Part shown: piece after piece, positions 18,190 through 18,252 of the stretch
How the letters are laid out: the number at the start of each line of letters is the position of its first letter
Numbering within the stretch: position 1 is the stretch's first letter
Origin: Eledone cirrhosa
Lineage: Eukaryota
Reading direction: 5' to 3'
DNA: 28,393 bases
Assembly: GCA_964016885.1 (NCBI GenBank)
Contig: CAXHJY010000197.1
Location: 1-28,393, forward strand
Program-made: the position numbers and the translations under genes
The notes under the pieces: model-generated
What the model was told of the DNA's origin: nothing
Databases searched by the model: none
What the model saw: only the letters and a program-made list of their open reading frames with translations

Positions 18190-18252
18190 TATTTTATCTG
18201 ATGAAAGCGTACCAATGTGTCTTGGTACCCTTGAAATATATATAATAAAATA
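18190..18252 (+). ncRNA. Type I hammerhead ribozyme, intact core
   Basis: Stem I TATTTTAT(18190-97)/ATAAAATA(18245-52); CTGATGA 18198-204; stem II AAGCGTACCAA/TTGGTACCCTT (10 of 11 pairs); GAAA 18233-36; short palindromic stem III ATATATAT; predicted cleavage after AUA at 18244. Confidence 0.85.

What the first reader, a model, noticed from the sequence alone, without database searches (positions are those of the whole stretch)
18190..18252. Type I HHR whose stem III is a (TA) microsatellite palindrome with an AUA cleavage triplet
Seen: GAA-ATATATAT-A gives only a 2-bp intramolecular stem III but a perfect 8-nt palindrome. Stem II is long (11 bp) and closed by A-U rather than the usual G-C. 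Known: metazoan minimal type I HHRs with short palindromic stem III cleave as dimers. Inference: this variant uses an all-AU palindrome for dimeric cleavage, possibly with the adjacent tandem copy, in an element that sits within (TA)n tracts.
Basis: partly seen in the sequence, partly recalled or inferred. Interest (0 to 1): 0.7.

Follow-up and report, generated by a model that had tools for sequence, protein, structure and literature searches.

The report
Penelope-type hammerhead with fixed AU palindrome
This is one copy of a very abundant repeat carrying a hammerhead RNA motif whose eight-letter AU palindrome is fixed in length and likely lets two RNA copies pair and cut each other, an already published design, but the neighbouring tandem copies proposed as partners are broken.

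Summary
The type I hammerhead fold at 18190-18252 is real (0 of 300 shuffles give one). Stem II is 3 bp + C·C + 7 bp, not 11 bp. The motif belongs to a high-copy repeat (about 6,000 contigs laid per run). Across reads the 8-nt palindrome shows no listed indel and one listed change (A>G, wobble-compatible in a dimer), while loop II varies freely. A sister family on the minus strand (18730-18665) keeps the same palindrome and C·C with a different stem II. So the tract is not a slipping microsatellite, and pairing between two RNAs is likely. The 'adjacent tandem copy' idea fails: the 2.4-kb unit is a local duplication, copy 2 has lost A15.1, copy 3 has lost 14 nt of core and stem II, and an antisense sister copy lies between copies 1 and 2. 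Palindromic dimer hammerheads in Penelope-like elements, natural AUA sites and an A-U stem II closure are all published. This scan already reported this family and its C·C on other DNA of this genome (four notes). Cleavage, expression and the link to an autonomous element were not tested here.

The parts
18190..18252 (+). Type I hammerhead motif, family A, copy 1 (only intact family-A copy in the window)
18205..18232 (+). Stem II: 3 bp, C18208·C18229, 7 bp, 6-nt variable loop 18216-18221
   Evidence: loop variation
18236..18244 (+). 8-nt palindrome (A15.1..U16.1) plus A17; predicted cut after 18244
18170..18270 (+). Extended stem I (outer helix 18170-18181/18259-18270); G18189 just outside the 8-bp inner helix
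18026..18388 (+). High-copy repeat body that carries the motif; most relatives stop matching at about 18285-18301, a minority run on to about 18388; 5' end not determined
   Evidence: depth, loose ends
18389..19073 (.). (TA)n-rich tract after copy 1
18617..18815 (-). Sister element (family B) inside the TA tract of copy 1 only; hammerhead motif 18730-18665, C3 at 18722, predicted cut after 18673; same palindrome, different stem II, same C·C at step 4
20610..20672 (+). Family A copy 2: A15.1 replaced by C (20656), extra G·A mismatch at stem II step 3
23066..23114 (+). Family A copy 3: 14-nt deletion removes the end of the CUGAUGA box and the 5' arm of stem II
16960..23909 (+). Three tandem copies of a 2.3-2.5 kb mosaic unit (94-96% identical outside the tracts); two further partial copies to about 25700 lack the hammerhead

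Best explanation
[quoted passage not shown] Shown: the fold, the family size in reads, the fixed palindrome, the sister family with a swapped stem II, the broken neighbours. Inferred: the constraint acts on the source elements of the family, not on this copy. The partner would be a second copy in a tandem or multimeric element transcript, or another RNA molecule, perhaps helped by the element's protein. The window's copy is likely a passive insert that was later triplicated with 2.4 kb of its surroundings.
For: (1), four runs, 18186-18275, 1% threshold. 12 indel rows shown of 19, all at 18207-18225 (e.g. 17.6% and 20.0% of X5 reads at 18219 and 18217); none at 18233-18245 where X5-X7 depth is about 23,000-31,000; depth rises only 1.7-1.9% inside the tract, which bounds clipping. 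40 substitution rows shown of 57: 14 in loop II (6 nt), 1 in the palindrome (18240 A>G; 2.1% of X1 depth, 54-65% of X5-X7 reads), which in a dimer gives two central U·G pairs; none at GAAA, AUA or C18229. A free 4-nt loop should vary like loop II; it does not. (2) Family B keeps the 9 nt from A15.1 to A17 identical while stem II changes with compensation at steps 2 (A-U/G-C) and 5 (G-C/A-U); reads add 18210 T>C with 18227 A>G (unphased) and U·G-compatible A>G at 18247/18248 in stem I. (3) Monomer stem III is essentially unformed (P(15.1-16.1) 0.001) and costs 2.9 kcal/mol; for 18170-18270 the unconstrained two-strand minimum-energy fold is the double hammerhead, 6.0 kcal/mol below two monomers; 0 of 12 non-palindromic permutations of the tract give it. 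(4) 5,862-6,602 contigs laid per run on 363 bases. (5) Family B is in the TA tract of copy 1 and absent from tracts 2 and 3, as expected for an insertion after the duplication. (6) Published design: small palindromic helix III in metazoan PLE hammerheads, dimer cleavage low but detectable (PMC4209133; review PMC6765202); (TA)n insertion and a hammerhead near the 3' end in Hydra PLEs (PMC8557442).
Against: No cleavage or expression data. The dimer is the minimum-energy form in only 3 of 8 fragment sizes, with ensemble probability 0.001-0.34; it is not so for the common 18240G variant, for the family B homodimer, or for 7 of the 8 palindromic permutations; the bare duplex is weak (-3.2 kcal/mol); one TA more folds better in the model, so pairing alone does not explain the fixed length. 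Fixed length is weak evidence by itself: two other short TA runs (8 and 10 nt) are also unchanged across the 3 tandem copies, and 4-5 units is the slippage threshold (PMC5054066). Hidden rows (17 substitutions, 7 indels) were not seen; X5-X7 are RAD libraries biased to some subfamilies. No RT or endonuclease remnant next to the motif (0 of 8 peptides pass a Pfam cut-off; long frames in 12400-28393 are repeat-derived), so the PLE link rests on anatomy and on earlier unchecked notes. All 26 Hydra rows of File S2 have GU-H triplets and 9-10 nt stem III, unlike this motif.
Confidence: 0.58

Rival explanations
1. Protein-assisted or tertiary-stabilised monomer: the element's own protein, or a contact between stem I and the C·C step of stem II, holds the 2-bp stem III, and the tract is fixed because it is recognised, not because it pairs in trans.
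For: The Poseidon hammerhead of Anolis does not cut without the element's protein (PMC11167929). Dimer probabilities are low and context-dependent. An alternating AU tract is palindromic by composition. C18229 shows no listed change, and no change that would pair 18208 with it is listed.
Against: The only listed change in the tract is one of the two that keep trans pairing; monomer stem III probability 0.001; dimer cleavage was seen for related PLE motifs (PMC4209133).
Confidence: 0.24
2. The fold is kept for a role other than cutting (RNA handle for the retroelement protein), and cuts little or not at all in vivo.
For: All-AU stems I and III, AUA the slowest of four triplets tested post-transcriptionally (PMC1636495); hammerhead mutants did not affect insertion in vitro and no RNA-seq reads began or ended at the site for PAc (PMC11167929).
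Against: The catalytic boxes and NUH are kept in both families while stem II is replaced; core changes in reads are few (18200 G>T from 4-6 read starts; 18202 is the free position 7).
Confidence: 0.12
3. One reading: copy 1 dimerises with the adjacent tandem copy in one long transcript.
For: Copy 2 keeps CUGAUGA, AUA and both stem I arms, so copy 1's core could in principle cut copy 2 through a 7-bp stem III (sequence).
Against: Copy 2 lacks A15.1, copy 3 lacks part of the core; spacing 2,420 nt; the copy 1 + copy 2 minimum-energy fold is not a hammerhead; a read-through RNA contains the antisense family B copy, predicted to pair with 18233-18287; 2 of 3 copies broken at 94-96% identity points to no selection at this locus.
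Confidence: 0.04
4. Chance look-alike made by a TA microsatellite in AT-rich DNA.
For: Local GC 18%; the bare sequence pattern occurs by chance in large collections (25 of 25 metagenome hits lack stems I and II together); no Rfam match.
Against: 0 of 300 shuffles; two families with compensated stem II; fixed tract in thousands of contigs.
Confidence: 0.02

Closest known systems
PLE hammerheads with a small palindromic helix III / min-HHR (Cervera and De la Pena 2014, PMC4209133; read parts 1-2 of 4, no figures or supplement)
   Same: Type I, canonical CUGANGA and GAAA boxes, helix II longer than 4 bp, palindromic 15.2-16.2 and loop 3, mostly single dispersed copies, dimer model.
   Different: No extra base between 9 and 10.1; 10.1-11.1 is mostly A-U rather than the conserved G-C; stem I is long (8 bp plus an outer helix) rather than 4-5 bp; fixed C·C at stem II step 4.
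Hydra-clade PLE hammerheads incl. Hydra-1_Obim (Craig et al. 2021, PMC8557442; read passages, Files S1-S2, four supplement searches)
   Same: (TA)n targets, hammerhead a few tens of bases from the 3' end, A-U closing a 7-bp stem II in Hydra-1_Obim.
   Different: 26 of 26 Hydra rows have GU-H triplets and a 3-4 bp stem III (9-10 nt); none lists a C·C; six short motifs of this element found no homologous place in the supplement; no ORF seen here.
Animal non-LTR retrozymes (PMC7229834, passages; bioRxiv 10.64898/2026.07.22.740005, abstract only)
   Same: Non-coding, AT-rich, type I hammerhead, weak palindromic helix III needing dimers in amphibians; proposed to derive from PLEs.
   Different: Retrozyme monomers are 150-450 bp head-to-tail repeats with 4-bp stem II and loop 1-2 contacts; here the tandem unit is a 2.3-2.5 kb mosaic with broken copies.
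Natural AUA hammerheads: ELVd (+), sCYDV-RPV (+), cscRNA (-) (PMC1636495; abstract, passages, Table 1)
   Same: AUA before the cut; sCYDV-RPV also has a long helix II with internal loops.
   Different: These have stable 5-6 bp helix III and lie in plant RNA replicons.

Membership tests
Type I hammerhead ribozyme | CUGANGA, GAAA and NUH boxes joined by helices I-III with the ends in helix I | tested here: met
   (helix III only 2 bp in cis)
Type I hammerhead ribozyme | Self-cleavage after H17 | not testable with these tools
   needs a bench assay
Type I hammerhead ribozyme | Match to an Rfam hammerhead model | tested here: not met
   Rfam models are not a defining criterion for such variants
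PLE hammerhead with palindromic helix III (PMC4209133) | Palindromic 15.2-16.2 and loop 3; helix II longer than 4 bp; family with covariation | tested here: met
PLE hammerhead with palindromic helix III (PMC4209133) | G10.1-C11.1 and an unpaired base between 9 and 10.1 | tested here: not met
   A-U in copy 1, G or C variants in 21-27%; described as consensus trends, with variants, in the paper
Penelope-like element | RT plus GIY-YIG ORF joined to the hammerhead-bearing end | tested here: inconclusive
   none next to this copy; no genome held, so other copies could not be examined
Penelope-like element | Insertion into (TA)n; common 3' end with an optional tail | tested here: inconclusive
   family B lies in a TA tract of copy 1 only; depth falls about tenfold after 18285-18301 with TA loose ends at 18301, and a minority continues about 85 nt, longer than the 30-40 bp published tail
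Hydra clade | RT/EN phylogeny and linker motifs | not testable with these tools
   no protein available here; hammerhead stem III differs from 26 of 26 listed Hydra rows
Non-LTR retrozyme | Head-to-tail monomers of 150-450 bp, each with an intact hammerhead | tested here: not met
   unit 2.3-2.5 kb, 1 of 3 copies intact
Microsatellite | Length varies among copies by slippage | tested here: not met
   control shows other short TA runs are also stable

The most novel reading that the evidence does not exclude
This lineage replaces the usual loop 1-loop 2 contact with a rod-to-rod contact: both families keep an unpaired C at step 4 of a long stem II and a G just outside the 8-bp inner stem I (G18189; a single bulge in family B; read variants 18183C, 18185T and 18254A would also close most of the family A internal loop). 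The bulged G and the unpaired C would dock helix I on helix II (or bind the element's protein) and let an all-AU double hammerhead cut, with families that share the palindrome able to cut each other. The C·C was noted before in this scan; I did not see the bulged-G partner in the notes or papers listed.
Probability: 0.17. Interest if true: 0.55.

Novelty: new member of a known kind. Interest (0 to 1): 0.24.

Why it matters
As posed, little: palindromic dimer hammerheads of Penelope-like elements, AUA sites and A-U stem II closure are published, and the scan has met this family before. The value is practical. The family has very many natural variants, a fixed weak palindrome with one wobble variant, and two fixed unpaired bases, so it offers a clean test of whether PLE hammerheads act as RNA dimers or as protein-assisted monomers, which the papers read here leave open.

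Tried and rejected
No whole genome is held, so copies could not be counted or phased in an assembly. Rfam: 0 matches at gathering level; 7 weak matches at E<=10, none a hammerhead. Sequencing runs: no RNA holder listed; not used as evidence. Metagenome pattern scan: 25 loci; none of 25 has both stem I and stem II, all judged chance. Supplement of PMC8557442: the palindrome string occurs once, inside an ORF; six element motifs gave 3 unrelated places. Pfam on 8 frames around the motif: one sub-threshold hit (Nyv1_longin, 16 bits against 25), rejected. The small hairpin past the common 3' end that earlier notes describe can be read at 18304-18322, but it does not fold better than shuffles (126 and 54 of 200 as good): not counted as evidence. 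The re-ordered (non-circular) hammerhead reading of other notes is not needed, since the ordinary type I order closes all helices. My strict descriptor missed family B (A·C at step 1), which was found by pattern and by eye. Look-ups of earlier notes by sequence found nothing. Lunse et al. 2017 is not held; I know it only from its title and the review's summary.

Full report
Observation. The sequence holds a complete type I hammerhead on the + strand: stem I 18190-18197/18245-18252, CUGAUGA 18198-18204, stem II 18205-18215/18222-18232, GAA 18233-18235, the palindrome ATATATAT 18236-18243 and A17 at 18244. Stem II has 10 pairs in 11 steps, with C18208·C18229 at step 4. My descriptor finds this site alone in the window and nothing in 300 of 300 local dinucleotide shuffles of 9001-28393. 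Stem I continues in an outer helix, 18170-18181/18259-18270 (z -3.2, 1 of 200 shuffles). Rfam has no hammerhead match.

Setting. The window is microsatellite-rich animal-type DNA. An octopus-like origin is suggested by earlier notes and by a SINE-like motif that I recall; it was not determined. A 2.3-2.5 kb mosaic unit is repeated three times, 94-96% identical outside the tracts, with two partial copies behind. Only copy 1 has an intact core: copy 2 reads GAAC and has a G·A at stem II step 3, and copy 3 has a 14-nt deletion through the end of CUGAUGA and the 5' arm of stem II. A second hammerhead (family B) lies on the minus strand at 18730-18665, inside the TA tract after copy 1 and not in tracts 2 or 3. 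It has the same nine letters from A15.1 to A17, a different and longer stem II with compensated pairs at steps 2 and 5, the same C·C at step 4, two further mismatches (steps 1 and 8), and two G·U pairs in stem I.

Family survey. No assembly is held, so I used public runs (coded X1-X7, at most four samples). On 18026-18388, 5,862-6,602 contigs per run were laid. Summed depth peaks near 2.8 million at 18247-18272 against 6-25 for the single long pieces listed, which suggests on the order of 10^5 copies, though the tool warns that this is no copy number. Depth falls about tenfold after 18285-18301, with TA loose ends at 18301, and a minority continues to about 18388. On 18186-18275 at a 1% threshold, 12 of 19 indel rows are shown and all lie at 18207-18225, up to 20% of reads in loop II. 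None lies in the palindrome, where 23,000-31,000 reads sit; a 1% indel there would have more X5 reads than 9 of the 12 rows shown. Of 40 substitution rows shown (57 in all), 14 are in the 6-nt loop II and one is in the palindrome, 18240 A>G (2.1% of X1 depth; 54-65% of the RAD reads, which favour family B). None is listed for GAAA, AUA or C18229. Position 10.1 is G in 21-27% and 11.1 is C in 24% of X5 reads, so the A-U closure is not fixed. Caveats: hidden rows were not seen, variants are unphased, RAD libraries are biased, and two other short TA runs are also constant across the three tandem copies, in line with a slippage threshold of 4-5 units (PMC5054066, one passage). The stronger point is the contrast between the free loop II and the fixed 'loop III', and the unchanged tract across two families.

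Folding. The 2-bp monomer stem III has probability 0.001 and costs 2.9 kcal/mol. Two copies of 18170-18270 fold, unconstrained, into the double hammerhead with an 8-bp intermolecular stem III and swapped stems I, 6.0 kcal/mol below two monomers. This holds in 3 of 8 fragment sizes, at probabilities up to 0.34. It holds for 0 of 12 non-palindromic and 1 of 8 palindromic permutations (the natural one), and not for the 18240G variant, for copy 2 or for family B; one TA more would fold better. The model is therefore suggestive only. A read-through RNA from copy 1 pairs 18233-18287 with the antisense family B copy, and the copy 1 + copy 2 fold is not a hammerhead. In principle copy 1's core could still cut copy 2's intact AUA through a 7-bp stem III.

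Mechanism. Most likely (0.58) the source elements use the palindrome to build stem III between two RNA copies and cut after AUA, and this copy is a passive insert. The main rival (0.24) is a protein-assisted or tertiary-stabilised monomer, as for the Anolis Poseidon hammerhead, which does not cut without protein (PMC11167929, passages). A non-cutting role (0.12), the local tandem partner (0.04) and chance (0.02) follow.

Comparison. Cervera and De la Pena 2014 (PMC4209133; parts 1-2 of 4 read) describe PLE hammerheads with long helix II and small palindromic helix III that cleave weakly as dimers; a review says the same and cites Lunse et al. (PMC6765202, passages; the Lunse paper is not held). 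AUA is the natural triplet in three plant-RNA hammerheads (PMC1636495; abstract, passages, Table 1). Hydra-1_Obim closes a 7-bp stem II with A-U, and almost all Hydra families insert into (TA)n (PMC8557442; passages, Files S1-S2). However, 26 of 26 Hydra rows have GU-H and a longer stem III, and I found no ORF beside this copy, so membership of PLEs is likely but untested and of Hydra undecided. It is not a classic retrozyme array (PMC7229834, passages; bioRxiv 10.64898/2026.07.22.740005, abstract). On print coverage: a search for hammerhead, 'C-C mismatch' and Penelope gave 48 papers with two of the terms; none of the 15 listed holds the mismatch term. Searches with octopus and cephalopod gave no description of this family in their listings. 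Unseen supplements (PMC4209133 figures S2-S5, Lunse et al.) may hold such variants.

Earlier notes. Four notes on other pieces of this genome report the same kind of motif with the C·C at step 4, about 100,000 copies and a Hydra-type PLE link. I had recorded the C·C before reading them and confirm it for two families; the copy number only roughly; the PLE link not at all.

Verdict. Real motif, fixed palindrome, likely dimer-type PLE hammerhead; the three features flagged as odd are known, and the adjacent-copy idea fails. New member of a known kind, interest 0.24.

Noticed in passing
window 17230-17270 (+), 19165-19270 (+), 17365-17480 (-) and their tandem copies: Three different short elements per unit share GAAGTTAGACG behind a CTGA-N-AA ... 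CGAA arrangement (11 places); looks like a hammerhead-related core with A at position 8.
   Followed up: no
window 14018 (- strand, running left): Small minimal-hammerhead-like motif: CTGATGA, one extra A, a 4-step stem with one mismatch, GAAA, then GTC.
   Followed up: no
window 16592 (- strand, running left): 5' half of a hammerhead-like motif (CTGATGA plus a hairpin) that runs into a TAGA-type repeat before any GAAA.
   Followed up: no
window 20822-20908: About 85-nt GC-richer island with short inverted repeats, inside the TA tract of copy 2 only: another insertion after the duplication.
   Followed up: no
window 18233-18290 and 18684-18625: Family A and family B 3' parts face each other tail to tail and form a long predicted fold-back across the TA tract.
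   Followed up: partly
window 18304-18322 (+) and 20724-20742 (+): ACT(T/C)C ... TTGAGT hairpin just past the common 3' end, as in earlier notes on Hydra-type ends; not better than shuffles.
   Followed up: partly
window 12790 (+), 26541 (-), 9000 (-): Identical 22-nt motif at three places, which I recall as part of an octopus SINE; the label is from memory.
   Followed up: no
window 8-8931: 8.9-kb array of a 38-bp ATG-rich unit, about 217 copies, with near-total G skew.
   Followed up: no
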